From: a virus
Lineage: Duplodnaviria > Caudoviricetes
Reading direction: 5' to 3' (one strand)
Length of the DNA: 64,000 bases
IMG/VR virus record: IMGVR_UViG_3300031992_000011
Position numbers and translations under genes: made by a program. Position 1 is the first letter of the stretch. Each line of letters opens with the position of its first letter. Below, one piece after another: positions 26,039-51,791 of the stretch. The notes below the pieces were generated by a model, which saw only the letters and a program-made list of their open reading frames with translations, did not search any database and had not been told where the DNA came from.

Positions 26039-26109
26039 GCGTCCATAGCACAGAGGCAGTGCACCGGCTTCCCAAGCCGGGGACGCCAGTTCGATTCTGG
26101 TTGGACGCT
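26039..26109 (+). tRNA. tRNA-Gly(CCC)
   Basis: Cloverleaf; anticodon arm CCGGC-TTCCCAA-GCCGG. Confidence 0.92.
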
Positions 26110-26116
26110 CAAGTAC

Positions 26117-26327
26117 TGCGAGTATAGACCACTTAGTAGTGACCGGTGTAAGCGCTTGGGTAGCTCGAGGCAATGTCCGAGCGTGCAGTCGTGGGGCAAC
26201 GTGCACCCTCAGACCGGTGAAACGTGTTGGTGCTTGTGAAGGCCCATACGAGGTGGCGCAACAGATACGGTTCCCGCGTGGGGAATATCCAAGCCCGTGA
26301 CAGCCGCCGCTCGTCAATTTACTCGCA
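26117..26327 (+). ncRNA. candidate 211-nt multibranch ncRNA, unclassified
   Basis: TGCGAGTA/TACTCGCA closing helix; GCTTGGGTA/TATCCAAGC; four internal hairpins; fills the spacer between two tRNAs. Confidence 0.65.
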
Positions 26328-26330
26328 TAT

Positions 26331-26405
26331 AGGGAAGTGGCTCAGTCCGGTTAGAGCGCTTGCTTTGGGAGCAAGAGGCCGCAGGTTCGAATCCTGTTTT
26401 CCCTA
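26331..26405 (+). tRNA. tRNA-Pro(TGG)
   Basis: Cloverleaf; CTTGC-TTTGGGA-GCAAG. Confidence 0.93.
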
Positions 26406-26419
26406 CAAAAAAAAATAAC

Positions 26420-26493
26420 ACTCCAGTGGCGCAATTGGTCAGCGTGTCTGTCTTATACACAGTAGGTTGTAGGTTCAAGTCCTACCTGGAGTA
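26420..26493 (+). tRNA. tRNA-Ile(TAT)
   Basis: Acceptor ACTCCAG/CTGGAGT; anticodon loop CTTATAC. Confidence 0.85.
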
Positions 26494-26517
26494 CATTTTT
26501 GAAAAACAATCAGCATT

Positions 26518-26736
26518 ATGCCGAAACTTAATCTAAATGAAGTACTGAATGATGACGATGTCATCAAGGCGTTGAACCCTAAAGAATGGGAGTTCAGGTG
26601 TGGCAGTTGTGACAACTTCTGTGACATCTTCGGGAGATATTCCGAGTTCAAAACCATTGAAAGATGCCCGTTCGAGGGGAAGGTGACGTGGGACACTGAT
26701 TGGAGAAAGATTGGCTGTAAGTGCTATTGGAACTAA
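26518..26736 (+). CDS. small Cys-rich protein within the tRNA cluster
   Basis: 72 aa; CGSCDNFC, CPF, C-terminal GCKCYW. Confidence 0.55.
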   Translation: MPKLNLNEVLNDDDVIKALNPKEWEFRCGSCDNFCDIFGRYSEFKTIERCPFEGKVTWDTDWRKIGCKCYWN

Positions 26737-26739
26737 AAT

Positions 26740-26813
26740 GGTCCTGTAACTCAGTTGGTCAGAGTGCCTGACTCATAATCAGGGAGTCGTAGGTTCAAGC
26801 CCTACCGGGACCA
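26740..26813 (+). tRNA. tRNA with a CAT anticodon (Ile2-like or elongator Met)
   Basis: CCTGA-CTCATAA-TCAGG; the GACTCATAATC context resembles tRNA-Ile2. Confidence 0.85.
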
Positions 26814-26822
26814 CAATGCAAT

Positions 26823-26896
26823 TGCGGGGTGGAGCAGATGGTCAGCTCGTTTGGCTCATAACCAAAAGGTCGCAGGTCCGAGTCCTGCCCCCGCAA
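26823..26896 (+). tRNA. tRNA-Met(CAT), initiator-like body
   Basis: GCGGGGTGGAGCAG...GCTCG as in fMet tRNAs; anticodon stem TTTGG/CCAAA. Confidence 0.85.
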
Positions 26897-26960
26897 CAAC
26901 ACAGTCTGCCGATAAGAGATGAACACCTATTTATGTCTATAGCAGATATAGCATTGAAAT

Positions 26961-27689
26961 ATGAATAGGATAAGGCAAATCATCAACGAGGCAGTCCGAG
27001 AGACCTTGTTGTTTGAAGCGATCAAGTCAAGTTGGTTGAAAAGGTTCTTCGCCGAGCATGGAGGTGTGGACAGCACTATGCACAACGACTACTTGGGCGA
27101 CGCACAGGATGAGGATATCGAGGACGTGAAGGTTTTTCCTTCAAAGAAGGAAGCGTTTGAAATGGCGTGGAAACTGAGACGTGAGCACATAACCGGTTTT
27201 CGTAAAGTATATGTCGCCAAGGACGGCACGGCAGTTCTTGTCGTGTACAAGGATTCTGTAAAATCAAACCCGACATGGGGCGGAGAAGCGTCCGCAAAGA
27301 CAGCCGACAGGTATTGGAGAAACGGTGAAAGGTTCACTTCGTACAATCCTGAAACCGGTCAGAGAGTACCCGGATACCGTGACGACAGGGGCACCTACAC
27401 ATACAGTGACGGAAAGTCAAGCGAAGGTGCCGCCAGATTCGGCATAAGGAATTCGGACGATTACCGTAGACATGTGGCGTTCGTCAGAGATCAGAGGGCG
27501 AAGGCAAAACAGAACGGAAAAGAGGATGATTTCAACCGTTGGCGTGATGCAGAAGCCAAGAGAGTCAAAGACTACGCTGAAGAAAAGAAGAAGGAACGTG
27601 ATTGGCAGAGGGAATATTTCGGGCTCAGTGACCGTGAGCGAGAACGCAGACTGTCAAGACCTGCCCCATTGGACAAGCGTTTCAAATAA
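26961..27689 (+). CDS. basic hypothetical protein with an RQIINEAV leader
   Basis: 242 aa inside the tRNA cluster; TATTTAT at 26928. Confidence 0.7.
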   Translation: MNRIRQIINEAVRETLLFEAIKSSWLKRFFAEHGGVDSTMHNDYLGDAQDEDIEDVKVFPSKKEAFEMAWKLRREHITGFRKVYVAKDGTAVLVVYKDSVKSNPTWGGEASAKTADRYWRNGERFTSYNPETGQRVPGYRDDRGTYTYSDGKSSEGAARFGIRNSDDYRRHVAFVRDQRAKAKQNGKEDDFNRWRDAEAKRVKDYAEEKKKERDWQREYFGLSDRERERRLSRPAPLDKRFK

Positions 27690-27738
27690 CACGAATGCGT
27701 TAAACGGCCGCGCCGACATGTCAGTGCGGTCATTTTAT

Positions 27739-27810
27739 GCCCCCTTAGCACAGCGGTAGTGCAGTTCACTTGTAATGAACAGGTCGTTGGTTCGAATCCG
27801 ACAGGGGGCT
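27739..27810 (+). tRNA. tRNA-Thr(TGT)
   Basis: Cloverleaf; GTTCA-CTTGTAA-TGAAC. Confidence 0.93.
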
Positions 27811-27817
27811 CAACATA

Positions 27818-27896
27818 GCAAGGTAACAACAAGGCGCGACTCCCCCAACCGCGCCGGTAACCCGCACGTAACAGCCGATAGGGGCGGCGACCTTGC
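27818..27896 (+). ncRNA. candidate small pseudoknotted RNA
   Basis: GCAAGGT/ACCTTGC closing stem and a GGCGCG/CGCGCC hairpin whose CCCC loop is complementary to the GGGG at 27881. Confidence 0.45.
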
Positions 27897-27902
27897 CGAT
27901 AC

Positions 27903-27974
27903 GCGGATGTAGCACAACGGTTCGTGCACCAGCCTTCCAAGCTGGGGATGACGGTTCGATTCCGTTCATCCGCT
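27903..27974 (+). tRNA. tRNA-Gly(TCC)
   Basis: Cloverleaf; CCAGC-CTTCCAA-GCTGG. Confidence 0.93.
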
Positions 27975-27982
27975 CAAAAAAT

Positions 27983-28096
27983 GGGCTGAAATTTGTGGGC
28001 ATAAAGTTAAAACCTCAAGACGTTGAAAGCAGCAGTATAGGGACTGCTATTGGCGGTCAGATTAACCGTAGCCACATCTTGCAAGAGTTTCGGCCT
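27983..28096 (+). ncRNA. candidate structured ncRNA
   Basis: 12-bp closing helix GGGCTGAAATTT/GAGTTTCGGCCT (with G-U pairs) and internal hairpins AGCAGT/ACTGCT and CGGT/ACCG. Confidence 0.5.
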
Positions 28097-28103
28097 TTAA
28101 TAT

Positions 28104-28181
28104 AGCGGAGTGGAGCAGAAGCAGCTCGTCAGGTTCATACCCTGAAGGTCGTCTCAAACGGTGCAAGTCCTACCTCCGCCA
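28104..28181 (+). tRNA. atypical initiator-like tRNA-Met(CAT) with a T-stem insertion
   Basis: A1:C72 mismatch; TCAGG-TTCATAC-CCTGA; extra bases in the 5' T-stem strand; TGCAAGT T-loop. Confidence 0.65.
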
Positions 28182-28189
28182 CTAAAATA

Positions 28190-28313
28190 TGGGATTCTAC
28201 ACAGAGTATTCTTTTAAGTAGATGCATATGCTTACTAGGATATTGGGTGGTATTAGATTTTGAAACTGCAGATAATCAAAATCTATTAGGAGGTTCGAGC
28301 CATCTGTTTCCCA
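28190..28313 (+). ncRNA. candidate T-loop-containing ncRNA or remodelled tRNA
   Basis: TGGGA/TCCCA ends, ACAGA/TCTGT, 10-bp hairpin TAGATTTTGA/TCAAAATCTA, GGTTCGAGCC. Confidence 0.45.
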
Positions 28314-28327
28314 CAAAATTCAAAAAT

Positions 28328-28401
28328 GGTGCGTTAGTTCAGTTGGTTAGAATGCCTGCCTGTCACGCAGGAGGTCACGGGTCCGAGTCCCGTACGCACC
28401 G
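28328..28401 (+). tRNA. tRNA-Asp(GTC)
   Basis: Cloverleaf; CCTGC-CTGTCAC-GCAGG. Confidence 0.93.
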
Positions 28402-28455
28402 CTTCTTGATTGTTTGAATGAGTGGTTTGGGTCGTGTGAGCGCCCAGACCTTTTT

Positions 28456-28529
28456 GCTCCCTTAGCTCAGTTGGATAGAGCGTGAGGTTCCTAACCCCAA
28501 GGTCATGTGTTCGAGCCACATAGGGAGTA
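28456..28529 (+). tRNA. tRNA-Arg(CCT)
   Basis: Cloverleaf; anticodon loop TTCCTAA. Confidence 0.9.
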
Positions 28530-28533
28530 CTAT

Positions 28534-28619
28534 GGATGGGTGGCAGAGTTGGTCGATTGCACCGGTCTTGAAAACCGGCGGCCCGCAAGGGTCCGGGGGT
28601 TCGAATCCCTCCTCATCCG
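28534..28619 (+). tRNA. tRNA-Ser(TGA)
   Basis: CCGGT-CTTGAAA-ACCGG with a long variable arm. Confidence 0.93.
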
Positions 28620-28626
28620 CATAACA

Positions 28627-28710
28627 GCGACAGTGGCGGAACTGGTAGACGCGCCACCTTGAGGGGGTGGTGGGCACACGCCCGTGAAGGTTCGAGTCCT
28701 TTCTGTCGCA
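28627..28710 (+). tRNA. tRNA-Leu(GAG)
   Basis: CCACC-TTGAGGG-GGTGG with a long variable arm. Confidence 0.92.
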
Positions 28711-28754
28711 CAGGCCGGCCGCGAGACGCGCAACGGTCCGTGGCATGGGCATTT

Positions 28755-28828
28755 GCTGCCATCGTCTAATTGGTTAGGACGTCGCCCTTTCACGGCGGAG
28801 ATTACGGGTTCGAGTCCCGTTGGCAGTA
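28755..28828 (+). tRNA. tRNA-Glu(TTC)
   Basis: Cloverleaf; anticodon loop CTTTCAC. Confidence 0.93.
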
Positions 28829-28832
28829 CAAC

Positions 28833-28904
28833 GACTCCGTAACTCAGTGGTAGAGTATCGCACTTTTAATGCGAGAGTCGTGGGTTCAAGTCCCACCGGG
28901 GTCA
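28833..28904 (+). tRNA. tRNA-Lys(TTT)
   Basis: TCGCA-CTTTTAA-TGCGA. Confidence 0.93.
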
Positions 28905-28918
28905 CGAACGCGACAAGA

Positions 28919-28991
28919 GGGCCGCTAGCTCAGATGGTAGAGCGCTACATTCGCATTGTAGAGGTCACCGGTTCGAATCCGGTGCGGTCCA
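28919..28991 (+). tRNA. tRNA-Ala(CGC)
   Basis: CTACA-TTCGCAT-TGTAG; G3:U70 pair present. Confidence 0.92.
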
Positions 28992-28998
28992 CAGACAG

Positions 28999-29127
28999 AG
29001 CGTGTCGCGAACACGCACGCCATCGCACGAGAGGATTGGGGATGGTAACCCCGGATTGTGGAGGTCGTCTAACCAACGATAGAAGTGGCCGTCCGGTACA
29101 TAATCAACGGACAAACATCGTGACGCT
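28999..29127 (+). ncRNA. candidate structured ncRNA
   Basis: Closing helix AGCGT(GT)CGCGA/TCGTGACGCT; GCCATC/GATGGT and GTCCG/CGGAC stems. Confidence 0.4.
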
Positions 29128-29138
29128 TGGCATGTCAT

Positions 29139-29210
29139 GGGGTGATAGCTCAACGGTAGAGCAATTGGCTGTTAACCAATAGGCTGCAGGTTCGAATCCT
29201 GCTCACCCCG
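29139..29210 (+). tRNA. tRNA-Asn(GTT)
   Basis: ATTGG-CTGTTAA-CCAAT. Confidence 0.92.
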
Positions 29211-29284
29211 CAACTCAGAAGAACGGGCGAATCGCCCTGACAATGGGGATTGAACGGCACCGCCAAAAGTGGTGCCTTTTGCCG

Positions 29285-29368
29285 GGGAGCGTAACCGGTA
29301 ATTGGTAGCCGCACGGACTGTAAATCCGTTCCTTAATTGGACTGGTCGTTCGAGTCGACCCGCTCCCA
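29285..29368 (+). tRNA. tRNA-Tyr(GTA)
   Basis: ACGGA-CTGTAAA-TCCGT, variable arm, somewhat unusual D arm. Confidence 0.88.
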
Positions 29369-29379
29369 CAATGACTGTT

Positions 29380-29453
29380 CTTCCTGTAGCTCAACTGAAT
29401 AGAGCAATGCACTTCTAATGCATAGGTTCTGGGTTTGAGTCCCAGCGGGAAGA
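29380..29453 (+). tRNA. tRNA-Arg(TCT)
   Basis: ATGCA-CTTCTAA-TGCAT. Confidence 0.9.
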
Positions 29454-29462
29454 CTAATAACA

Positions 29463-29535
29463 AGGCGGTTAGCTCAGTTGGTAGAGTGGCGGTCTCCAAA
29501 ACCGCAGGTCGCACGTTCGAGCCGTGCACCGCCTG
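29463..29535 (+). tRNA. tRNA-Trp(CCA)
   Basis: GCGGT-CTCCAAA-ACCGC. Confidence 0.93.
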
Positions 29536-29543
29536 CAAAAAAA

Positions 29544-29633
29544 GGAAGCATACCCAAGTTGGTGAAGGGGGCGGCTTGCTAAGCCGCTAGGCCTCGGCGA
29601 CGGGGCGCGGAGGTTCGAGTCCTCCTGCTTCCG
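29544..29633 (+). tRNA. tRNA-Ser(GCT)
   Basis: GCGGC-TTGCTAA-GCCGC with a long variable arm. Confidence 0.93.
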
Positions 29634-29640
29634 CACAAAC

Positions 29641-29713
29641 AGGGTAGTAGCGCAGTTGGTAGCGCGCTACGTTCGGGACGTAGAGGTCGCAGGTTCGAAT
29701 CCTGTCTACCCTA
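29641..29713 (+). tRNA. tRNA-Pro(CGG)
   Basis: CTACG-TTCGGGA-CGTAG. Confidence 0.93.
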
Positions 29714-29721
29714 CTTGAATG

Positions 29722-29776
29722 TTAACAATTATTAACATGAAAAATTTGCAAGGTATATTTTTTTGTCGTACCTTTG
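29722..29776 (+). promoter_or_regulatory. promoter of the four-unit ncRNA array
   Basis: TTAACA at 29722 and 29732, TTTG at 29745, TACCTTTG at 29769; same geometry as the promoter at 25933-25987. Confidence 0.75.
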
Positions 29777-29782
29777 CACTTG

Positions 29783-29870
29783 AAAACAATGGTGAGTGAC
29801 AGGGTTACTTCGCATACAAACTGTTACAAGATTAAAAAGCAACGAACCCTTCGCATATCTTCCTTGTTTT
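29783..29870 (+). ncRNA. Y-RNA-like scaffold unit 1 (no tRNA cargo)
   Basis: AAAACAA/TTGTTTT, AGTGAC, AGGGTT/AACCCT, TTACTTCG. Confidence 0.55.
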
Positions 29871-29890
29871 TGTTCTTTGACATTCTTAAA

Positions 29891-30025
29891 ATGTGTGCAG
29901 TGACTGTGGCGGTTACTTCGTTGATTAGCTCATTTGGTAGAGCATAAGTTTATGGTACTTAGGGTAGATGGTTCGATTCCATCATCACAAAAGATTGTTT
30001 GCCGCCGCAAAATTTTCTCACACAT
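29891..30025 (+). ncRNA. Y-RNA-like scaffold unit 2 with an embedded tRNA mimic (loop TTATGGT)
   Basis: ATGTGTG(C)AG/CTCACACAT, TGAC, TGTGGCGG/CCGCCGCA, TTACTTCG; D, anticodon and T arms at 29922-29987 with only a 4-bp acceptor. Confidence 0.7.
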
Positions 30026-30033
30026 AACTCATA

Positions 30034-30166
30034 TTCCGCATAGTGACGGGCGGTGTTACTTCGAATTATTTAGCGCAGTGGTTAGCGCATCACACTTTTA
30101 ATGCGAGAGTCGCCGGTTCGATTCCGGCAATGATTCTTTAAAAGCACCCCCATTTTTCTTGCGGAA
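30034..30166 (+). ncRNA. Y-RNA-like scaffold unit 3 with an embedded tRNA-Lys(TTT) mimic
   Basis: TTCCGCA(T)AG/CTTGCGGAA, TGAC, GGTG/CACC, TTACTTCG; cloverleaf at 30063-30136. Confidence 0.7.
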
Positions 30167-30173
30167 AAGCACA

Positions 30174-30298
30174 ACCGGTTGTGACGTATCTCGGTTACTT
30201 CGATACGTTGGTTCGAGTCCAACTTTGTCCGCCATACAATTGGACGAATAGTCAAGTGGTTAAGACAGAATTCTTTACCGAGGCGAGTTTCCACCGGT
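30174..30298 (+). ncRNA. Y-RNA-like scaffold unit 4 with a circularly permuted tRNA module (YrlA-like)
   Basis: ACCGGT/ACCGGT, GTGAC, CTCGGT/ACCGAG, TTACTTCG; T arm 30207-30223, looped acceptor TTTGTCC-GCCA...GGACGAA, D arm 30251-30266. Confidence 0.75.
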
Positions 30299-30349
30299 AC
30301 AAAAAACGGTCTGCTTCAATGTAGATGGATTTTGTAGATGGTTTAACGT

Positions 30350-30382
30350 GCGGTGCGCTGTATATCAGTGTGCCGCTTTTTT
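30350..30382 (+). terminator. intrinsic terminator closing the ncRNA array
   Basis: GCGGTGCGCTG-TATAT-CAGTGTGCCGC-TTTTTT. Confidence 0.8.
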
Positions 30383-30415
30383 GTTTGAGTATAAAAAGAC
30401 AACACAAAAAAAATA

Positions 30416-31021: not shown

Positions 31022-33130
31022 ATGCTATACGACGAAGATATAAAGGCGAAGGAACAAATAGTTGAAGATGCCAAGTTGGTGTTGAAACGCGAGTTTGTCG
31101 GTATTGACGACATCATTGACGGTGTAATGGAGAATGTGCGAACATGGTACATGTTTCCGAACCTGTACAACCGCCCGCTCATCATCAACCTGTTCGGAAT
31201 GACAGGTGTCGGCAAGACAAGTCTTGTGCAGCGCATATCCCAGCTGCTTGATTTGGAAAAGGACTACTATTATTTCAACTTTGGTGAGATAAGCGAATGT
31301 ACTGCGTGGGATATTGAAGAGAGAATAAATGACGAGATCAGCGACGAGAAATCGAACCGTGTTTTCGTGTATGATGAATTTCAGTACGCGTCTACCATTG
31401 CCGAAGATGGAACTGAGAGAGAAAAGAGAAGCGGACTTAAACCGTTCTGGGAACTTATGGACGCAGGAAAGATGCACAAGCGGGACTCGGTTTACCTGTA
31501 CAGTTCGTTATTCAGCACCGCCAATTATCTTATACGCATAAATAACGTGTGCAGAATACAACTTGAGAACGGCGCTTGGGTTAACCGCGACGAATGCCTC
31601 TCACATTTCGGCGAATACGAGATTTCCAGATTCAGCACAGTCCTCAACACAAGAGGCGCGAGCGGAGCCCCAACTGAACGACCGAATGCCATTGGAAAAA
31701 TTGAAGCCGATGGAATGGGCAGTAATCTCCCAAACAACATGCCGAGCAAGGGAAGCATGCAATCATTCATATTGACAGCGGACACATTCTCCACAATCGT
31801 AAGGCGGTCTCGCAGGAGCAGAAGGGACACTGACAGTTACATAGAACTCTTCAACGAGTTTTGCACATACGATATAGACCAACTGATCGCCCGGATTGTC
31901 GACGTGTACAACATGGCGTGCAAGGGATTTGATCTGGATTTTCACAATTCTCTCATCTTTGTCTTGGCGAACCTTGACGAGGCGTACAACATGACGTTCA
32001 ACCTGAACCCGGACATGTCGGCCGACACTTTCCATAAGATGACGAAAAATATCTCCATCGTCAACATCAAGAAGGCGCTGCAGAAAAGGTTCAGAAACGA
32101 GCAGATTGCGCGTTTGGGCAACATACATTTCATATACCCTTCATTGTCAAGCAAGACTTACCGCGAGATAATACGCCGAAACCTTGACAAGTTCACGGTT
32201 GAATTCCGTACAATGACCGGAATAGAGGCTTCTTATGACAAGAAGATTGTTGACCTTATATACAAAGACAGTGTGTTCCCGACGCAGGGGACGCGTCCGG
32301 TATTCTCGACAATATATGATTTCGTGAACTCGAAGGTGTCAAACATCATCATAGACATATATGACACGGGTATAACAGCGCAGTCAGTACACTTTACCGC
32401 AAGCGGAAGGATGACAAAGGTTGTCGTCACAAGCGGTGACTGTCAAGGAAAAAAAGTGTTCAAGTACAAGAACGTAATCCGTGTCGACTCATTGAGGGAC
32501 ACGAAGAAGGACACACAACAGGCGATAGTGGCACTTCATGAGAGTGGACACTTTGTCACCTATCTCCTCACCTTCGGCAAGACGCCGGAAAAACTTGTGT
32601 CGCGCACAGCGAATGACGGCGACGGAGGGTTCATGCAGCATTTCGCCGATGACGATGTATCGTCATTCACCAAGATAGGTCTTAAAAGACATCTGATCGT
32701 TCTGCTCGGAGGATATGCCGCAGAGAAGATGTTTTTCGGCGATGACCACATGACGGGCGGCGCCTGCTCGGATCTGGAATCTGCGACAAAACTGGCCGTC
32801 AGGATGGTCCGTGAATACGGGATGGGGTCGTTCAAGTTCACATCAACGACAATGTCTTCACCGATGCATGAGAGGATGATACTTCTTGACCATGACAGGA
32901 AGAAGCACGTCGATGACGAGGTCAACAGGTTAATAGAAGGCGCGTACAGTGAGGCGTGCGAATATCTCGACAAGTGGCGGAGCATATTAAAGGAATCTGC
33001 CGAGTATCTGTGCACACATTCATCCATGCCAAAGGAGATAATGGAAAAATTGTTCAAGAAAATACCGGCAGAAGCGATAGGGGAGAATTTTGACAGGCAG
33101 TTTTATATGGATATGATACATAAAATCTGA
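31022..33130 (+). CDS. AAA+ ATPase fused to a peptidase M41 (FtsH-type zinc protease) domain
   Basis: GMTGVGKT, VYDE, IARLG, QGTRP; HESGH, LLGGYAAE, GACSDL; no TM segment; promoter TACCTTTG at 30995. Confidence 0.85.
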   Translation: MLYDEDIKAKEQIVEDAKLVLKREFVGIDDIIDGVMENVRTWYMFPNLYNRPLIINLFGMTGVGKTSLVQRISQLLDLEKDYYYFNFGEISECTAWDIEERINDEISDEKSNRVFVYDEFQYASTIAEDGTEREKRSGLKPFWELMDAGKMHKRDSVYLYSSLFSTANYLIRINNVCRIQLENGAWVNRDECLSHFGEYEISRFSTVLNTRGASGAPTERPNAIGKIEADGMGSNLPNNMPSKGSMQSFILTADTFSTIVRRSRRSRRDTDSYIELFNEFCTYDIDQLIARIVDVYNMACKGFDLDFHNSLIFVLANLDEAYNMTFNLNPDMSADTFHKMTKNISIVNIKKALQKRFRNEQIARLGNIHFIYPSLSSKTYREIIRRNLDKFTVEFRTMTGIEASYDKKIVDLIYKDSVFPTQGTRPVFSTIYDFVNSKVSNIIIDIYDTGITAQSVHFTASGRMTKVVVTSGDCQGKKVFKYKNVIRVDSLRDTKKDTQQAIVALHESGHFVTYLLTFGKTPEKLVSRTANDGDGGFMQHFADDDVSSFTKIGLKRHLIVLLGGYAAEKMFFGDDHMTGGACSDLESATKLAVRMVREYGMGSFKFTSTTMSSPMHERMILLDHDRKKHVDDEVNRLIEGAYSEACEYLDKWRSILKESAEYLCTHSSMPKEIMEKLFKKIPAEAIGENFDRQFYMDMIHKI

Positions 33131-33256
33131 CATATTGTCATTTTTTTGCCGTGGTATTGACTTTGCTATATCATATAATGGATTTTTAAATAAAGTACTA
33201 CAATGTAAAGCACTTTGTTTATCAGTCAAAAAGACGACACAAAAATTTTAAGGATT

Positions 33257-33703
33257 ATGATATTTGATTTTAGCAAAACACCAATTTTCAGTTTATTTGA
33301 CCCGTTTGAGACTTTTGAAGAAATCTTTTCGGATGTACTGAAGGAAAAGAATGGAAAGTTCGACAGCGAAAGAAGTGAGAAGACTTCCATATACAAGGAC
33401 AACGATCTTGTATACGAGAGAGAAAAAGAATGGAAGAACGATGAGTTGGTGAAGGACGAAGAGAAAGGACGTGACACACTGAAGTCGCTGACCGGACGCA
33501 ATGACAAGCGTTCATGTGAAAAAAAGTCGGAAACTTCGGAAGATACCAAGAGTACAGGCATCATGCTTGCAAAGAAGGACAAGTACATAAACACTCTTAT
33601 CGAGAAGAACAGAAAACTCAAGGCGCTGAACGATCATCTCTCCGAAGAAAACGAAAGACTGCGCAACAAAATAAAACAAGCACACGACAGTCTCAGACCA
33701 TAA
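33257..33703 (+). CDS. hypothetical coiled-coil protein
   Basis: ATG at 33257; highly charged. Confidence 0.55.
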   Translation: MIFDFSKTPIFSLFDPFETFEEIFSDVLKEKNGKFDSERSEKTSIYKDNDLVYEREKEWKNDELVKDEEKGRDTLKSLTGRNDKRSCEKKSETSEDTKSTGIMLAKKDKYINTLIEKNRKLKALNDHLSEENERLRNKIKQAHDSLRP

Positions 33704-33842
33704 AGGGATTTTTTCTGCATAGTATGTTCAGGTGCGTTTGACAATTTTGGCATTCGCACTTGTTTTTTAACAATTTTACACACAAAAAATTTTGAAAAAG
33801 GCAAAGTTCAATGTAACTTTGCGGTGTCTTATAAATGGTAAA

Positions 33843-34937
33843 ATGTCAAACAAGGATTATTACAACATACTTGGTGTCGGAAGGGACGCGACGGATGAAG
33901 ACATAAAAAAAGCGTACAAGAAACTTGTGCTGCAATATCATCCTGACCGTCAACAAGGTAAGACTGACAAGGAGAAGGAGATTGCAGACGCCAAATTTAA
34001 GGAAATAAACGAGGCATACCATATATTGACAGACAGCACCAAGCGGAAACTTTACGACACATACGGAACAGTCGATGAACAGGTGGATGAAGGCATGGGA
34101 CACATGTCAGATTTCATGCGCGAATTCATGAGACGGAACGGTTTCACCGAAAATGGATTCCAAAACAAGTCAATGGGCAGCAATATTGAAGTACACGTCA
34201 ATCTGACTGTCGCGGAGATTCTTGGCGGAAAGAAGAAGGAAGTGACGTTCAAACGTGCACGGAAATGTGTACATTGCAACGGGACCGGGTCAGCTGACGG
34301 GAGAGAATCGAAATGCCCAAATTGTGGAGGTACCGGATTTGTCACAAGGTTCCACAGGAGTGGATTCGGCGCGGTACAACAGACGATGACGTGCCCTTCC
34401 TGTGGGGGAAGCGGAAAGGTGGTCACATCACCGTGTCATCATTGCGGGGGAAGTGGGCTCGAAGACAAGGAAGACAAAATCTCATTCAACATACCTATAG
34501 GTGTTTGTGACGGAGCATATACTGTGTTCTCTGGATATGGGGATGAATCTCCCGACGGCGGACCGGCAGGTGATGCGATACTCATATTCCACATCGACAT
34601 GCCTGACGGTTTCTCCGTAGGGAAAGCGGCAATGCAATACGGAATACCGACGTCTGACATATACAGTATCGTCGGTGAGATCAACGTGCCTATATTAGAC
34701 TGCATAACGGGCGGGGATGTAAAATTCGTACATCCCGACGGAAAGAAGATAAAGTTCAAGATAGGCAAATGCACTGAGGACGGAACAAGCGTCAGGATGG
34801 CAGGAAAGGGACTTCCTCGGAAAAATGGAACCATGGGGGACTTATATATGGTGATACATGCCAAGATGCCGAAAACGCTCAATTTCGACGACATAAAGAA
34901 AATAAACGAACTTAAAAAAAGTAATTCGTTCAAGTGA
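33843..34937 (+). CDS. dnaJ: chaperone DnaJ
   Basis: J domain with HPD, four CxxCxGxG repeats and the C-terminal domain. Confidence 0.93.
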   Translation: MSNKDYYNILGVGRDATDEDIKKAYKKLVLQYHPDRQQGKTDKEKEIADAKFKEINEAYHILTDSTKRKLYDTYGTVDEQVDEGMGHMSDFMREFMRRNGFTENGFQNKSMGSNIEVHVNLTVAEILGGKKKEVTFKRARKCVHCNGTGSADGRESKCPNCGGTGFVTRFHRSGFGAVQQTMTCPSCGGSGKVVTSPCHHCGGSGLEDKEDKISFNIPIGVCDGAYTVFSGYGDESPDGGPAGDAILIFHIDMPDGFSVGKAAMQYGIPTSDIYSIVGEINVPILDCITGGDVKFVHPDGKKIKFKIGKCTEDGTSVRMAGKGLPRKNGTMGDLYMVIHAKMPKTLNFDDIKKINELKKSNSFK

Positions 34938-34938
34938 T

Positions 34939-35385
34939 ATGATACACTCATGCGGAATCATACCGTTCAGGGTCAACGATGACGGAAAAATGGAATTTTT
35001 CGTCGGACATCCGGGTGGATGGAACAGGGATTACTGGGCAATGCTGAAAGGGCAGATGGAGGACGGCGAGAACGCGTCCGAGTCCGCAGTAAGGGAATTT
35101 ACCGAAGAGAGCGGTGTGGACCTGTCGTCTTGCCGCAGTCAGATGCTGATACCGTTGGGCTCGGTGATGCAGAACCCCAAGAAAATGGTGACGGCATTCG
35201 GTTTGCATTTTCCGGAAATAGACCCGGAAAAGTGCCATTCCAACATGGCAGACAATGGTCTGAATCCGGAGATAGACAGTTACCGGTGGATGACAATGGA
35301 CGAACTTGCACATAAGACCCATGCCACACATATTGTCTTTTACGAGAAGTTGTTGTCGATGGCAGAAAACGAAGAAAAGATATGA
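34939..35385 (+). CDS. NUDIX hydrolase
   Basis: Nudix box GQMEDGENASESAVREFTEESG; HPGG and PEID motifs. Confidence 0.88.
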   Translation: MIHSCGIIPFRVNDDGKMEFFVGHPGGWNRDYWAMLKGQMEDGENASESAVREFTEESGVDLSSCRSQMLIPLGSVMQNPKKMVTAFGLHFPEIDPEKCHSNMADNGLNPEIDSYRWMTMDELAHKTHATHIVFYEKLLSMAENEEKI

Positions 35386-35963
35386 GGATAATTACCGGAA
35401 AAGACGCGATATTCTATACCGACAGTTATGACGTGGTGCTGGTTGGGACAAGCGTGTACAATATGCTGACAAACGGTTTCCAATCCAAGATACGGTTCAA
35501 GTATCCGAATGTGCGGGACGCAAACGACAGGACGGGATACGGCGATCTCAGGAAACTCGGCACACGTCTCACAGTTGACTGTGGAAGCACGCAAGTCTCA
35601 TTAATGTATGTGTCGAAATTTCCGAACAGCCGGCGTGTTTTCGTGGACTACGACGCGCTGAGGAACGCGCTTCTTACTGCACGGAAAGAATTTAACGGGA
35701 AACGGATAATGACAACCGTTGTGGGTTCTACACCTTTCGACGGAAACGGAGACAAGGAGACATGCCTGTCGATAATTTCTGACTGCATGAACGGGGTCGA
35801 TATTGATGTCTACGACTACGAACAAGTCCCGAGACTCGTCGAACTTGAACATTACAGGAAAATGTTAAGCGGAAAGAGGCAGACAGAACCCGAAAAATAC
35901 GACAGGATGAGATCCGAATGGGACAAATTGATGGCACGCATATACCTTCAGTCACAGAAATGA
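35382..35963 (+). CDS. divergent macro-domain-like protein
   Basis: The pattern GKDAI..DVVLVG..MLTNGFQSKIRFKYP..KLGT..DYDAL..DGNGD resembles Poa1p/DarG-type macro domains. Confidence 0.55.
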   Translation: MRIITGKDAIFYTDSYDVVLVGTSVYNMLTNGFQSKIRFKYPNVRDANDRTGYGDLRKLGTRLTVDCGSTQVSLMYVSKFPNSRRVFVDYDALRNALLTARKEFNGKRIMTTVVGSTPFDGNGDKETCLSIISDCMNGVDIDVYDYEQVPRLVELEHYRKMLSGKRQTEPEKYDRMRSEWDKLMARIYLQSQK

Positions 35964-35966
35964 CAT

Positions 35967-36518
35967 ATGGCTAAGAAGAATACATACAAGAAAAAACCGC
36001 TATTCGACGAACCGAGGATAAACGGAGAAATCACATGTAAAGGTTCTGTGAGAGTCGTGTTCAAGAGCAGAGAGAATGAACAAGAGTCTTTCAATCAGGT
36101 GATGAGTATCGACGCCGCAAGGTCTGAGGCGGCATCTAGGTCGCTCGACCTAATTGAAATCAACCCTTCAACGACACCTCCCATATTGCGTATAGACAAT
36201 TACTCTAAGTATCTGTTCGAGCAGAAAAAGAGAGTGAAGGAGAACAAGAAACCGTCGCAGCAAGTCAAAGAGATACAATTGTCGACCAACATATCCGAGC
36301 ACGACATGGAGACAAAGGCCAAGATGGCCGAACGCTTCCTGTCCGAAGGGGACAAGGTCAAGGTTGTACTGAAAATGCGCGGGCGCGAACTTGGGCGACG
36401 CGAACAGTCCAAAAAATCCATACTCTTATTCATGGACCGACTTGCCGATGTCTCGCTGCCGGAGAGCATGCCGCGTGACGAGGGCAACAAGTGCATCGTC
36501 ATACTCAAGAAAAAATGA
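35967..36518 (+). CDS. infC: translation initiation factor IF-3
   Basis: RINGEI, LDLIEI..PP, KEIQL, HDMETK, GDKVKV..RGRE. Confidence 0.92.
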   Translation: MAKKNTYKKKPLFDEPRINGEITCKGSVRVVFKSRENEQESFNQVMSIDAARSEAASRSLDLIEINPSTTPPILRIDNYSKYLFEQKKRVKENKKPSQQVKEIQLSTNISEHDMETKAKMAERFLSEGDKVKVVLKMRGRELGRREQSKKSILLFMDRLADVSLPESMPRDEGNKCIVILKKK

Positions 36519-37357
36519 CAAGGAGACTGAACACACGGACCACAGACAAGCCGATACCGCGTATGACTGACGCCCTGTCGGCCTACTATGCGGACATACG
36601 CAAATACCCGCGTCTGAACAAAGACGAGACGTGCCGTCTGTTCAGTGAGATGCGTCTCGGCGGCGAGGCTGCTGACAAGGCACGCGAGAGCGTCATATAC
36701 AGACTTCAGAGATTTGTAGTTTCTGTCGCCAGATGCTACAGCAAGTACGGGGAGATGAGCGACTTGATAAGTGAAGGCAACTTGGGCCTGATGCGCGCCG
36801 TTGAACTGTACAATCCGGAATCAGGGAACGAGATCACATCATACGCCGTGTTCTGGATAAGGAAATACATCATCCAATACATCACCGACCAAGTCCCTCA
36901 GGTGCGTCAGAAGAACACCACAAGGAGGGTGACGTATTCAACAAAGGCAAACAGCCTGTTCTTCACCGAGCACGGGCGCTTCCCGACAGAGACCGAATTG
37001 GCCGATTTCATAGAGGAGAGATATGGGGAGAAGATAAGGGATGCTTCAGACCTCACGCAATTGTCATTCATCTCTTCTGACACTGAGTATGGAGAGGGCA
37101 TTTTCGGCAGTGTCACCCAAGACATCGGAAAAAAGATGAACGAAGAAAAGAACCGGCATGACGTGGAAGTGATGATGTCTTCCCTGAACGACAGAGAGCG
37201 TGACATCATAATGTCATACTACGGGATAGGGGGACAGAACGAGGAAAGCGCACTCGAGATAGGCGCACGCCTTTCACTCAGCGAGGAACGTGTCAGACAG
37301 ATACACAGGGACGCAATCAAAAAACTCAACAAGAAATATGGCAAAAATCAAAATTAA
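36515..37357 (+). CDS. second sigma70-family factor
   Basis: RFVVSVAR, DLISEGNLGL, SYAVFWIR, region 3 (PTETELA) and region 4 (LSEERVRQI). Confidence 0.9.
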   Translation: MTRRLNTRTTDKPIPRMTDALSAYYADIRKYPRLNKDETCRLFSEMRLGGEAADKARESVIYRLQRFVVSVARCYSKYGEMSDLISEGNLGLMRAVELYNPESGNEITSYAVFWIRKYIIQYITDQVPQVRQKNTTRRVTYSTKANSLFFTEHGRFPTETELADFIEERYGEKIRDASDLTQLSFISSDTEYGEGIFGSVTQDIGKKMNEEKNRHDVEVMMSSLNDRERDIIMSYYGIGGQNEESALEIGARLSLSEERVRQIHRDAIKKLNKKYGKNQN

Positions 37358-40724: not shown

Positions 40725-40901
40725 ATGGCAAACGACACGAAGAAGCTCGAGCAAGAAATATCGACACTTTCCAAGGAAGTAGGAAAGATGTCCGACACAA
40801 TGAAGGAAAGCAACCGGGTGCTGCAGCAATTGGTGAGGCAGATGGAAAAAATCACCGAGCGCATGACGCAGCAGAACGAACTGTTACGCAACGGAAAATG
40901 A
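40725..40901 (+). CDS. 58-aa coiled-coil protein (not in the supplied ORF track)
   Basis: MANDTKKLEQEISTLSKEV...; promoter TACCTTTG at 40691; the stop overlaps the next ATG. Confidence 0.6.
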   Translation: MANDTKKLEQEISTLSKEVGKMSDTMKESNRVLQQLVRQMEKITERMTQQNELLRNGK

Positions 40902-42250
40902 TCGGATTTGACGACATAAGGAAAGAAGGACTTCTGCTCTATGAGTATGTAAGAGGCAGTCACGCATACGGACTTCAGAAACCGGACGGAAGCAGCGACA
41001 TTGACACCGGCGGTGTATTCATTGAACCATACGAGTGGATAGCCGGTCTCGGGCATGACGCAGTCGAACAGGTGGCGGATGCACGCGGTGACACTGTGTG
41101 GTATGCACTCAAGAAATACCTCAGGCTCCTCATTGTCGCAAATCCGACTATGTTGGAGAGTCTGTTCGTGCCGGAACGTTGTGTCCTGTATGAACATCCT
41201 TTGTTCGGGACAATCAAGGCGAACCGAGACATCTTCGTCACCAAAGAATGTTTCAAGTCATTCCTTGGATATGCGGTGAATCAGATAAAGAAGTGCCGCG
41301 GACTGCACAAAATGATAGTACAAGAGGATTTCGAGCGGAAACAGCCGCTTGATTTCTGCTATACGTTCTATGGGCAAGGAAGCAGCAAGATAACCAACTG
41401 GCTTGAGTACAGAGGTCTCAAGCAGGAGTATTGCGGACTGGTGAATATTCCGAATATGCGAGACATCTACGGATGCTACTATGACTGGCACAGACATTTT
41501 ACCGAGTGCGGAATCACATATGAAGAATTAATTGAGACATTTCTCAATGGCCGTCCGGACACAAATCTGTCTGTCGTCATTGACCGGATCAAGACATGCT
41601 CCGACAATGCCGAGAAAGAACACCTTGAACGGATGCGTGAACTCGCGGTGAAATGGAACATGGTAGATTTCATAACGAGGGAAGTCCTCGGTATGAATGA
41701 GATTTATGACGAACACGCCGCCTGCGCTGTGATAGCAGAATGGATGAACAGACTTCAAGACAATCACTACAGTGGAATTGTCGGTCCTGACGGTCAGTCA
41801 AACGAAATTCGACTCTCGTCCATACCAAAAGGTGAGATGCCGATATGCAACATATCGTACAACAAGGACGGATACACCAAGCACTGCGTCGAATACAAGA
41901 ACCTTCAGAGATGGAAAAGGGAGAGAAACCCCGAACGCTACAAAGAAAATGTCGGCAAGAACTTTGACCGAAAGAATGTCGCCCACGCCGTGCGATTGAT
42001 GCACATGGGGATAGAGATCGCCAGAACCGGAAAGGTCAATGTAGACAGGACTGACATCGACCGCGACTTTATAATGGGGATACGAATGGGTGACACGTCA
42101 TATGACGAGATAATGTCATATCTTGAGTCAAAAAAGTCCGAGCTTGAAGACGCCATGATGACGTCGACGATACCGGATAGCGTTGACATGGACAAAGTAA
42201 GTGAATTGCTTGTGGCAATGAGAGAACAATTCAATAATGTCAAAAACTGA
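40898..42250 (+). CDS. Pol-beta-superfamily nucleotidyltransferase
   Basis: RGSHAYGL...SDIDTGGVF, NPTMLE, KNVAHAVRL. Confidence 0.85.
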   Translation: MIGFDDIRKEGLLLYEYVRGSHAYGLQKPDGSSDIDTGGVFIEPYEWIAGLGHDAVEQVADARGDTVWYALKKYLRLLIVANPTMLESLFVPERCVLYEHPLFGTIKANRDIFVTKECFKSFLGYAVNQIKKCRGLHKMIVQEDFERKQPLDFCYTFYGQGSSKITNWLEYRGLKQEYCGLVNIPNMRDIYGCYYDWHRHFTECGITYEELIETFLNGRPDTNLSVVIDRIKTCSDNAEKEHLERMRELAVKWNMVDFITREVLGMNEIYDEHAACAVIAEWMNRLQDNHYSGIVGPDGQSNEIRLSSIPKGEMPICNISYNKDGYTKHCVEYKNLQRWKRERNPERYKENVGKNFDRKNVAHAVRLMHMGIEIARTGKVNVDRTDIDRDFIMGIRMGDTSYDEIMSYLESKKSELEDAMMTSTIPDSVDMDKVSELLVAMREQFNNVKN

Positions 42251-51226: not shown

Positions 51227-51791
51227 TTTGGACGGTGTGATAAGGGACATCGTGACGCCAATGTGCCATGTGTACAACCGTGACGTCCCACACGGCACCA
51301 AAGTAAGACCCGGTGACATTGTCCACTACGATGTCGGGGTGATGTTTCCGCAAATCGCTGAATGTGAAAAGTATGACGGACTTTGTGTGCGCGACATATT
51401 CTTCACCGGTGAAAATGCGCGTACAGTGTTTCTCGACAGAGCGCTTATCATTCCGGGCAGCGTCGAGGCCATCAGACGGATGATGGACGCCGGACACACA
51501 GTGTCCATCGTGACGTGGCAGATGAACGAGGACAACATACGTTACGCCATTGAGTTCCTGTCAAGGCACAAGGTGCCCTACGACGAGATAATGTTCACTC
51601 ACGCAAAGGAGATGGTGATAACCGACTTTGCCGTCGACGACAACCCGGAGTTCCTTGAGCCCGAAGGCCGGGAAGTGGGAAAGATATTGATAGACGCACC
51701 ATACAACAAGTGGTATGACCGTGCAGTCCGCAAGAATAGTCTGGCTGACGCCGCTGAATATATACTGACATTTAAACAAGAGACGACATGA
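51210..51791 (+). CDS. 5'(3')-deoxyribonucleotidase-like HAD phosphatase
   Basis: IDLDGVIRD, IVT, K, VDDNP, APYN. Confidence 0.8.
   Translation: MRIKIDLDGVIRDIVTPMCHVYNRDVPHGTKVRPGDIVHYDVGVMFPQIAECEKYDGLCVRDIFFTGENARTVFLDRALIIPGSVEAIRRMMDAGHTVSIVTWQMNEDNIRYAIEFLSRHKVPYDEIMFTHAKEMVITDFAVDDNPEFLEPEGREVGKILIDAPYNKWYDRAVRKNSLADAAEYILTFKQETT

What the first reader, a model, noticed from the sequence alone, without database searches (positions are those of the whole stretch)
29722..30382. Own-promoter array of four Y-RNA-like RNAs with one scaffold and swappable tRNA-mimic cargos
Seen: four tandem units (29783-29870, 29891-30025, 30034-30166, 30174-30298) lie between a Bacteroidota promoter (29745/29769) and a strong terminator (30350-30382). 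Each has a terminal helix with a bulged pyrimidine on the 5' strand, then (A/T)GTGAC facing a pyrimidine-rich internal loop, a second helix and an invariant TTACTTCG. The helix sequences differ between units yet still pair, a covariation-like pattern. The cargo differs: none, a tRNA mimic with a 4-bp acceptor, a tRNA-Lys mimic, and a permuted tRNA. Known: bacterial Y RNAs use a bulged terminal stem to bind Ro60/Rsr, and YrlA carries a tRNA-like domain. Inference: this is a modular phage ncRNA family in which a protein-docking stem displays different tRNA shapes, for example as decoys for anticodon nucleases or as adaptors for RNA repair or decay. No Ro60/TROVE gene is in this window, and the stem motif differs from the GNCGAAN(0-1)G Y-RNA consensus, so the partner protein is unknown.
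Basis: partly seen in the sequence, partly recalled or inferred. Interest (0 to 1): 0.93.

Follow-up and report, generated by a model that had tools for sequence, protein, structure and literature searches.

The report
Phage Y-RNA operon displaying tRNA shapes
Four small RNA genes at the end of a giant phage's tRNA cluster are partner RNAs ("Y RNAs") of the ring-shaped RNA-surveillance protein Ro60, a known kind of RNA; what is unusual is that two of them hold an ordinary-looking tRNA by its acceptor end, a form no paper I could find describes.

Summary
Four tandem units (29781-29872, 29890-30026, 30033-30167, 30173-30299, + strand) share (A/U)GUGAC...GUUACUUCG, two closing helices and a U-rich 3' loop. 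They lie between a Bacteroidota-type promoter and a strong terminator.

They are Y RNAs, the partners of Ro60/TROVE:
- The same handle lies upstream of phage TROVE genes: TACTTCG occurs 144 times on the gene strand and 3 times on the other, in 63 of 80 loci.
- Covariance models built only from other phages' RNAs find all four units: unit 4 at 65 bits (E 1e-14), units 2 and 3 at 110 and 103 bits (E 1e-24, 1e-23), unit 1 at 24-37 bits.
- Unit 4 is YrlA-type (permuted tRNA), unit 1 is YrlB-type, and units 2 and 3 hold normal-topology tRNAs.

The acceptor-tethered form is in at least 118 IMG/VR loci. I found no paper on it in the held library.

No TROVE gene lies in this window. Eight of eight near-complete phage genomes with the handle encode one, up to 76-125 kb away. 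An unchecked scan note places one 101 kb upstream in this genome.

Function is inferred: Ro60 docking, with tRNA-shaped modules acting alongside the neighbouring RNA-repair genes.

The scan has noted similar arrays before on other DNA. Verdict: a new variant of a known kind.

The parts
29745..29776 (+). Candidate Bacteroidota-type promoter: -33 TTTG at 29745-29748 and -7 TACCTTTG at 29769-29776
   Evidence: Read directly from the sequence. The consensus is recalled from memory and expression was not tested. A sigma-70-like alternative lies at 29732-29759.
29781..29872 (+). Unit 1: cargo-less Y RNA (YrlB-like hairpin) with GUGAGUGAC, UUACUUCG, AAAAAGCAAC and a U-rich 3' loop
   Evidence: Model R1, built from 35 TROVE-adjacent cargo-less units, scores it 24.2 bits, E 0.003, over the whole window. 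R3 scores it 36.7 bits over its full length. Closure is -18.3 kcal/mol.
29890..30026 (+). Unit 2: Y scaffold holding a normal-topology tRNA-like domain (29922-29987) with a 4-bp acceptor and anticodon loop UUAUGGU
   Evidence: R3 scores it 109.7 bits, E 7e-25, full length. R1 scores it 29.5 bits, E 1.4e-4. Rfam tRNA scores 44.9 bits over model positions 4-67.
30033..30167 (+). Unit 3: Y scaffold holding a complete tRNA-Lys(UUU) (30063-30137). The acceptor helix starts at the G of UACUUCG.
   Evidence: R3 scores it 102.9 bits, E 4e-23, full length. ARAGORN and Rfam tRNA (63.9 bits) call the tRNA. Nineteen bases of the anticodon arm and variable loop are identical to the array's own tRNA-Lys at 28833-28905.
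30173..30299 (+). Unit 4: YrlA-type Y RNA with a permuted tRNA. Order: T arm, acceptor 3' strand 30224-30230, G-CCA 30231-30234, loop, acceptor 5' strand 30242-30248, D arm.
   Evidence: R2, built from 24 YrlA-like units of other phages, scores it 65.2 bits, E 1.2e-14, full length. Rfam RF02553 scores it 17.9 bits, E 0.13, full length in a 141-nt search.
30350..30386 (+). Intrinsic terminator that closes the operon
   Evidence: An 11-bp stem with 7 G-C pairs, a 5-nt loop and a T run.

Best explanation
The locus is a promoter-to-terminator operon of four phage Y RNAs, the RNA partners of a Ro60/Rsr (TROVE) ring protein. All four share one handle. Its parts, 5' to 3', are a terminal helix, an internal loop (5' Y-RGUGA facing 3' AUUUUCYC), a second helix, the junction YUACUUCG and, before the returning strand, an A-rich AAAAA(N)CAC element. 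The handle is the likely Ro60 docking site. The apical position carries a different module in each unit: nothing in unit 1 (YrlB-like), a tRNA body held by its acceptor end in units 2 and 3, and a circularly permuted tRNA held by its anticodon end in unit 4 (YrlA-like, with a 7-bp acceptor and an encoded CCA). The Ro60 gene lies elsewhere in this large phage genome. Inferred mechanism: Ro60 binds the handle, and the tRNA-shaped module recruits a tRNA-binding partner or is itself presented to one. Candidates are host PNPase, as in the Ro60-Y RNA-PNPase machine, or the phage's own RNA-repair enzymes encoded 10-30 kb downstream. This would give a set of specialised particles for surveillance, repair or decay of tRNAs during infection. 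What is shown: homology to TROVE-adjacent RNAs, covariation in all helices, and co-occurrence with TROVE. What is inferred: Ro60 binding, the effector and the biological role.
For: The handle was first found in an IMG/VR phage, where three units lie directly upstream of a TROVE gene. It recurs upstream of TROVE in L122, L123, a 635-kb megaphage and csAssE-Sib. Across 80 phage TROVE loci, TACTTCG occurs 144 times on the gene strand and 3 times on the other strand in 188 kb of upstream DNA. It is present in 63 of 80 loci, with the last copy a median 294 nt before the gene. Three alignments that contain no window sequence show covariation: 79%, 85% and 92% of cells paired against 58-64% in shuffles, with 0 of 500 shuffles reaching the observed value and slid controls far lower. 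Models built from those alignments find the window's units and essentially nothing else full-length: R2 scores unit 4 at 65.2 bits, R3 scores units 2 and 3 at 109.7 and 102.9 bits while plain tRNAs of the array match only the inner tRNA part at 55 bits or less, and R1 scores units 2 and 1. Rfam YrlA aligns over its full length to unit 4 (17.9 bits) and to the TROVE-adjacent relatives (28-44 bits). In complete genomes the handle can be far from TROVE: 76 kb in G001, where it sits inside a tRNA array, and 125 kb along the linear record in G005. Every genome at least 90% complete that carries the handle encodes TROVE, 8 of 8. The window encodes RlaP, an HD-kinase fusion, an RNA ligase, phosphoesterases and a Thg1-like enzyme. 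Published work shows that YrlA is a tRNA mimic bound by Rsr (PMC4201824) and that a phage Ro60 binds phage Yrl RNAs and host PNPase (PMC12135203).
Against: There is no TROVE gene in the 64-kb window, and I could not obtain the rest of the genome. The only indication of a TROVE gene in this genome is an unchecked first-reader note. The literal GNCGAAN0-1G motif is absent, and unit 4 scores far below Rfam's curated threshold (17.9 against 69 bits). No expression, binding or processing data exist. Which part of the handle contacts Ro60 is not known. The proximity of the repair genes (10-30 kb) is weak evidence for a shared pathway.
Confidence: 0.78

Rival explanations
1. Units 2 and 3, or at least unit 3, are pre-tRNAs. 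The handle is a paired leader and trailer. RNase P cuts between C and G of UACUUC|G, and 3' processing releases a working tRNA-Lys(UUU). Ro60 would act as a chaperone or gate for this maturation, or the remaining two-piece handle would be the Y RNA.
For: The unit 3 cargo is a high-scoring complete tRNA (63.9 bits) with a 7-8-bp acceptor that begins at the G of UACUUCG. In other phages the embedded tRNAs have the usual phage anticodon spectrum, with U34 in 42 of 58. In one 136-kb phage (G008) the two scaffolded tRNAs are the only tRNA-like genes. M. smegmatis YrlA is cut by RNase P and receives CCA while staying bound to Rsr (PMC4201824).
Against: Unit 2 and most members of this class have only 3-4 conserved acceptor pairs, which is unlikely to support RNase P cleavage or charging. 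The window already has a canonical tRNA-Lys(UUU) at 28833-28905. The unit 3 copy has an A-C mismatch in its anticodon stem, and its acceptor helix is followed by C or U rather than the A found in the array copy. Unit 1 has no tRNA at all yet keeps the handle.
Confidence: 0.2
2. The RNAs act as free tRNA decoys or sponges for host anticodon nucleases or other tRNA-binding defence proteins, independently of Ro60. On this view the shared handle only stabilises them.
For: Acceptor-tethered cargos expose an intact anticodon loop. Lys(UUU) recurs (window unit 3, csAssE-Sib and 18 of 58 IMG/VR units); from memory, not tested here, tRNA-Lys(UUU) is the classic PrrC target. A tRNA-repair toolkit lies nearby.
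Against: The handle co-occurs with TROVE in every near-complete genome tested and usually abuts the gene, which argues for a Ro60-dependent role. Many of the Lys(UUU) units are near-identical orthologues of one clade. My idea that cargos carry uncleavable A34 anticodons failed: 2 of 58.
Confidence: 0.1
3. The array is a decaying, non-functional copy of a Y-RNA cluster that was separated from its Ro60 gene by rearrangement.
For: It lies far from any TROVE gene. Unit 4 lacks the V arm found in most YrlA-like relatives.
Against: All four handles keep intact helices and every invariant element. The array has its own promoter-like site and a strong terminator. Complete genomes G001 and G005 also place intact units far from TROVE.
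Confidence: 0.03

Closest known systems
YrlA (Rfam RF02553; Chen et al. 2014, PMC4201824; structure preprint 10.1101/312249)
   Same: Unit 4 has the same order of parts: terminal stem, 5' purine motif, second helix, YUAY, T arm, closed acceptor-like stem, D arm, returning strand, U-rich loop. RF02553 aligns to it over the full length. The partner family is TROVE/Ro60.
   Different: The 5' motif is (A/U)GUGAC rather than GNCGAAN0-1G. The score is 17.9 bits against a curated cut-off of 69. UACUUCG is invariant. There is no V arm. The acceptor has 7 bp and an encoded G-CCA. The gene is not within 4 kb of a Ro60 gene.
YrlB / Yrn2-type Y RNAs (PMC4201824)
   Same: [quoted passage not shown] It is encoded in tandem with a YrlA-type RNA.
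   Different: It shares a precise handle (RGUGA, UACUUCG, AAAAA-CAC, AUUUUCYC) with its neighbours, whereas the published YrlB RNAs are poorly conserved.
M. smegmatis YrlA, cut by RNase P and CCA-tailed (PMC4201824)
   Same: [quoted passage not shown]
   Different: Here the CCA is encoded in the loop rather than added. Cleavage has not been tested.
Thermus phage phiLo Ro60 with Yrl1 and Yrl2 (PMC12135203)
   Same: A phage encodes its own Ro60 and several Y-like RNAs with a stem-bulge-stem layout. That work showed binding and a ternary complex with host PNPase.
   Different: Those RNAs lie next to the gene, carry a CGAA bulge motif and are not reported to hold tRNA modules.
Ordinary phage tRNA genes (Rfam RF00005)
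   Same: The unit 3 cargo is a complete cloverleaf with anticodon UUU. csAssE-Sib's scaffolded units are annotated simply as tRNA-Tyr and tRNA-Lys.
   Different: The tRNA is enclosed by about 25 nt of conserved handle on each side, which adds about 50 bits over plain tRNAs in model R3. Most class members have a shortened acceptor.

Membership tests
YrlA (Rfam RF02553 / Chen 2014) | Score at or above Rfam's gathering threshold of 69 bits | tested here: not met
   Unit 4 scores 17.9 bits, E 0.13, in a 141-nt search and was not reported in the 721-nt search. TROVE-adjacent phage relatives also fall below the threshold, at 28-44 bits.
YrlA (Rfam RF02553 / Chen 2014) | tRNA-like domain in the order T arm, acceptor-like stem-loop, D arm, joined to the stem through the anticodon-stem position | tested here: met
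   Met by unit 4 only. It aligns over the full length to RF02553 and to R2 at 65.2 bits. Units 1-3 do not have this order.
YrlA (Rfam RF02553 / Chen 2014) | GNCGAAN0-1G motif near the 5' end | tested here: not met
   The window has (A/U)GUGAC at that position. TROVE-adjacent relatives show a series, GGCGAUG, AGCGAUAG, GUAGUGA and AGUGAC, that links the two forms.
YrlA (Rfam RF02553 / Chen 2014) | Conserved YUAY after the second helix | tested here: met
   UUAC is present in all four units as part of the invariant UUACUUCG.
YrlA (Rfam RF02553 / Chen 2014) | Encoded within about 4 kb of a Ro60/TROVE gene on the same strand | tested here: not met
   There is no TROVE gene in the 64-kb window. Complete genomes G001 and G005 show that this rule is not absolute for the phage branch.
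Y RNA in the functional sense | Bound by Ro60/Rsr in vivo | not testable with these tools
   This needs immunoprecipitation or gel-shift assays with the phage Ro60.
Phage UACUUCG-handle Y RNAs (family delimited here from TROVE-adjacent RNAs) | Full-length, significant match to covariance models built without the window's sequences | tested here: met
   Unit 1: R1 24.2 bits (E 0.003) and R3 36.7 bits. Unit 2: R3 109.7 bits. Unit 3: R3 102.9 bits. Unit 4: R2 65.2 bits.
Phage UACUUCG-handle Y RNAs (family delimited here from TROVE-adjacent RNAs) | A TROVE gene in the same genome | not testable with these tools
   The genome beyond the window was not available. An unchecked scan note (e1-5674829) reports a TROVE+vWA gene 101 kb before the window. 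Eight of 8 near-complete handle-bearing phage genomes have one.
tRNA (RF00005) | Complete cloverleaf above the gathering score, with a 7-bp acceptor | tested here: met
   The unit 3 cargo scores 63.9 bits over model positions 1-71. The unit 2 cargo scores 44.9 bits over positions 4-67 only, with a 4-bp acceptor, so it does not meet the full test.

The most novel reading that the evidence does not exclude
The Y-RNA handle is a general adaptor that lets a phage Ro60 hold whole tRNAs by their acceptor ends, with anticodon loops exposed. The phage would use a panel of such particles (Lys-UUU and others, exchangeable within one scaffold lineage) as bait for host tRNA-cleaving defences. Cut or damaged cargo would pass directly to Ro60-associated nucleases or to the phage's kinase, ligase and Thg1-like repair enzymes. 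The acceptor-tethered units may also be the evolutionary link between pre-tRNA leader-trailer duplexes and permuted YrlA-type Y RNAs.
Probability: 0.15. Interest if true: 0.85.

Novelty: new variant of a known kind. Interest (0 to 1): 0.6.

Why it matters
What the tRNA-like module of bacterial Y RNAs is for has been an open question since 2014. This locus, and the large family it belongs to, offers natural variation on exactly that module. One handle carries no cargo, a tRNA held by its anticodon end, or a tRNA held by its acceptor end, and the tRNA identity changes within a single scaffold lineage. That makes the question testable by asking which partners are lost or gained with each cargo. 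It also has practical consequences for annotation. Some "tRNA genes" annotated in gut-phage genomes, such as csAssE-Sib's tRNA-Tyr and tRNA-Lys, are embedded in Y-RNA handles. Rfam's YrlA model misses this whole phage branch at its curated threshold. And Y RNAs need not lie beside the Ro60 gene.

Tried and rejected
1. Finding the rest of the genome failed. No whole genome is held. The FtsH-like and the 874-aa proteins have no close relatives in IMG/VR or INPHARED.
2. blastn of the locus against known phages returned only tRNA similarity.
3. The 14-base pattern scan of IMG/VR returned mostly chance hits. L041 is a coding tandem repeat and L073 a GC-rich coding region. L066 is a false positive at E 0.05 in a TROVE-less genome.
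4. The first helix-finding script was too permissive. Duplex energy compared with chance pattern matches separated real units poorly because GC content differs. It was replaced by partner-swap controls.
5. RNAalifold on the MAFFT alignment gave no structure because the helices were out of register. The structures were set from column-pair frequencies instead.
6. I tested the idea that cargo anticodons favour A34 as uncleavable decoys, prompted by unit 2 (AUG), L212 (AUU), L044-B (ACU) and L182 (AAG). The larger set rejects it: A34 in 2 of 58.
7. Model R1 alone did not place unit 4 correctly (10.4 bits, misaligned).

Full report
**What is there.** The stretch follows a cluster of 20 tRNA genes (26039-29714). 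The pattern GTGAC-N3-20-TTACTTCG occurs four times in the window, all in this stretch, against 0.06 expected. Pairing each 5' scaffold half with downstream sequence gives these units:

| Unit | Coordinates | Closure energy (kcal/mol) |
|---|---|---|
| 1 | 29781-29872 | -18.3 |
| 2 | 29890-30026 | -25.0 |
| 3 | 30033-30167 | -23.6 |
| 4 | 30173-30299 | -23.3 |

Each unit reads, 5' to 3':
- a terminal helix;
- a pyrimidine, then (A/G)GUGAC;
- a second helix;
- UUACUUCG;
- the cargo;
- the returning strand of the second helix;
- a U-rich loop;
- the returning strand of the terminal helix.

As an unbiased control I compared each cognate pairing with the best pairing of the same 5' half anywhere in 172 nt downstream of units from other loci. 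Units 2-4 rank first of 19 and unit 1 ranks third.

- Unit 1 has none.
- Unit 2 has a tRNA-like domain with a 4-bp acceptor (Rfam tRNA 44.9 bits, model positions 4-67).
- Unit 3 has a complete tRNA-Lys(UUU) (63.9 bits).
- Unit 4 has a permuted tRNA with a 7-bp acceptor and an encoded G-CCA.

A strong terminator follows at 30350-30376. TTTG at 29745 and TACCTTTG at 29769 fit the Bacteroidota promoter consensus. This is read from the sequence, the consensus is from memory, and expression was not tested.

**What it is.** A pattern scan of IMG/VR gave mostly chance hits. One locus, L044, has three units with the same GGUGACC...GGUUACUUCG handle immediately upstream of a gene that Pfam calls TROVE, the Ro60 domain. 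The same (N)UACUUCG handle then turned up upstream of TROVE genes in several other places:
- L122 and L123;
- a 635-kb megaphage;
- csAssE-Sib, where two units are annotated simply as tRNA-Tyr and tRNA-Lys in front of a "Ro sixty-related protein".

I then fetched 80 phage TROVE loci with a three-protein alignment. In 188 kb of upstream DNA, TACTTCG occurs 144 times on the gene strand and 3 times on the other strand. Sixty-three of 80 loci have at least one copy, usually two or three, and the last copy lies a median 294 nt before the gene. The handle is therefore the signature of the RNAs that accompany this clade of phage Ro60 genes.

**Relation to the published Y RNAs.** Chen et al. 2014 (PMC4201824) define YrlA by four things:
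- a 5' GNCGAAN0-1G motif;
- a conserved YUAY;
- a tRNA-like domain in the order T arm, acceptor-like stem-loop, D arm;
- a position near the Ro60 gene.

Rfam holds this family as RF02553. It aligns over its full length to the permuted units next to TROVE: 44.5 bits in L123, 41.4 in L044, 28.5 in csAssE-Sib, and 44.1 in a Gordonia phage. It aligns to window unit 4 at 17.9 bits (E 0.13 in a 141-nt search). All of these fall below the curated 69 bits.

The handle's UUAC is the YUAY element. The 5' motif varies in a graded way among TROVE-adjacent units (GGCGAUG, AGCGAUAG, GUAGUGA), and one TROVE locus has the window's AGUGAC. The window's RNAs are therefore a divergent phage branch of the YrlA/YrlB family, not a new family.

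**Independent statistical tests.** I built three alignments that contain no window sequence and set their structures from column-pair frequencies.

| Alignment | Units | Cells paired | Paired in shuffles | Shuffles reaching observed |
|---|---|---|---|---|
| A2, cargo-less | 35 | 79% | 58.5% | 0 of 500 |
| A3, permuted tRNA | 24 | 84.7% | 59.7% | 0 of 500 |
| A4, normal-topology tRNA | 17 | 92% | 64.3% | 0 of 500 |

In A4 all seven terminal-helix pairs show changes on both sides. Controls with the 3' partner slid by one to three columns are far lower in all three alignments.

The models built from these alignments find the window's units:
- R1 (from A2) finds only units 2 and 1 in the whole window (29.5 and 24.2 bits; E 1.4e-4 and 0.003). 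With filters off it also finds unit 3 (17.2 bits).
- R2 (from A3) scores unit 4 at 65.2 bits, E 1.2e-14, full length.
- R3 (from A4) scores units 2 and 3 at 109.7 and 102.9 bits (E 7e-25 and 4e-23), full length. The plain tRNAs of the array match only the inner tRNA part at 55 bits or less.

Calibration of these models was shortened, so the E-values are rough. The bit scores are not affected.

**The acceptor-tethered form is widespread.** My own estimate of the chance expectation is about four. The hits break down as follows:
- 60 unique sequences;
- of these, 35 have a well-closed handle and a tRNA called by ARAGORN;
- those 35 fall into 14 scaffold lineages;
- 25 of the 35 have a TROVE gene within the few kb fetched.

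The cargo identities are Lys(UUU), Lys(CUU), Glu, Gln, Pro, Cys, Leu, Ser, Val and UCA. Within one scaffold lineage the cargo can differ, for example Lys(UUU) against Glu(UUC), or Gln against Lys(CUU). This supports "swappable cargo".

Most members keep only 3-4 conserved acceptor pairs, like unit 2. Unit 3, with 7-8 pairs beginning at the G of UACUUCG, is at the tRNA-like extreme. Its anticodon arm and variable loop share 19 identical bases with the array's own tRNA-Lys, apart from one change that creates an A-C mismatch.

**The missing Ro60 gene.** The window has no TROVE gene, and I could not reach the rest of the genome. The absence counts for little, for three reasons:
- In the complete 299-kb phage G001, two units lie in a tRNA array 76 kb from the TROVE gene.
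- In G005, a lone unit lies 125 kb from it along the linear record.
- All eight handle-bearing genomes that are at least 90% complete encode TROVE. The only two contigs without it are 11-17% complete fragments.

An unchecked first-reader note of this scan (e1-5674829) reports a TROVE+vWA gene 101 kb before this window.

**How it probably works.** Known biology comes from PMC4201824, PMC12135203 and the bioRxiv preprint 10.1101/312249. Ro60 binds the Y-RNA stem, and the tRNA-like module engages a partner such as PNPase. One phage Ro60 has been shown to bind its own Yrl RNAs and host PNPase.

From this I infer that the handle docks the phage Ro60 and that the four apical modules give four different particles. 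The window also encodes RlaP, an HD-kinase fusion, an RNA ligase, three phosphoesterases and a Thg1-like enzyme. A role in tRNA surveillance or repair during infection is therefore the most economical reading, but it rests on neighbourhood alone.

The main rival is that unit 3 is matured into a working tRNA-Lys, with Ro60 gating the process. I put that at about 0.2.

**Novelty.** Phage Ro60 with Y-like RNAs is known. In the held library I found no paper describing Y-RNA handles that carry normal-topology tRNAs, or Y-RNA operons placed in tRNA arrays. Many subscription journals are not held. The scan itself has noted similar handle-plus-cargo arrays on other genomes. I class the locus as a new variant of a known kind.

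Noticed in passing
window 40898-63302: An RNA-repair toolkit: RlaP-family nucleotidyltransferase (40898-42250), HD phosphohydrolase fused to a P-loop kinase (51788-53179), RNA ligase (54454-55959, 34-36% identical to Lak megaphage proteins), three metallophosphoesterases (53625-54434, 55854-56717, 62655-63302) and a Thg1-like enzyme (60162-61160).
   Followed up: partly
window 31022-37357: Host-like housekeeping genes just downstream of the array: FtsH-like AAA+/M41 protease (31022-33130), DnaJ (33792-34937), NUDIX (34939-35385), translation initiation factor IF3 (35967-36518) and a sigma-70-family factor (36491-37357). These point to a very large phage.
   Followed up: partly
window 28104-28181: A weak Rfam tRNA match (31.5 bits) inside the tRNA array that ARAGORN does not call.
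   Followed up: no
window 26301-26435: Model R3 gives a full-length but weak match (45.9 bits) around tRNA-Pro at 26331-26406, so the flanks of this tRNA may pair. An earlier scan note describes a 211-nt structured RNA at 26117-26327.
   Followed up: no
window 29720-29737: A 6-bp inverted repeat, TGTTAA-N6-TTAACA, lies between the last tRNA and the array's promoter and overlaps the sigma-70-like -35 hexamer. It could be an operator.
   Followed up: no
L123 1724-3970: The TROVE reading frame stops near 2270 and resumes near 2930, with a separate small ORF in between. The gene may be interrupted by an inserted element.
   Followed up: no
L214 contig (G008, 136 kb) 56787-57007: The only two tRNA-like genes in this 90%-complete phage genome lie close together here. 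They probably correspond to the handle-embedded units next to TROVE, by analogy with csAssE-Sib; I did not map the coordinates.
   Followed up: partly
L257, L261, L262, L271: A recurrent ...AATATTTAC(G/A)ATACTTCG leader directly before tRNA-Met, without the closing helices of the handle. TACTTCG before a tRNA may also occur outside Y scaffolds.
   Followed up: no
A3 alignment (L136, L182, L208) and window 30231-30234: Several YrlA-like units, like unit 4, encode CCA immediately after the 3' acceptor strand, inside the closing loop. This suggests that RNase P cleavage could expose a ready-made CCA end.
   Followed up: no
L041 6540-7100: 120-nt tandem repeats inside a coding region happen to contain the search pattern. 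They are unrelated to the Y RNAs.
   Followed up: yes
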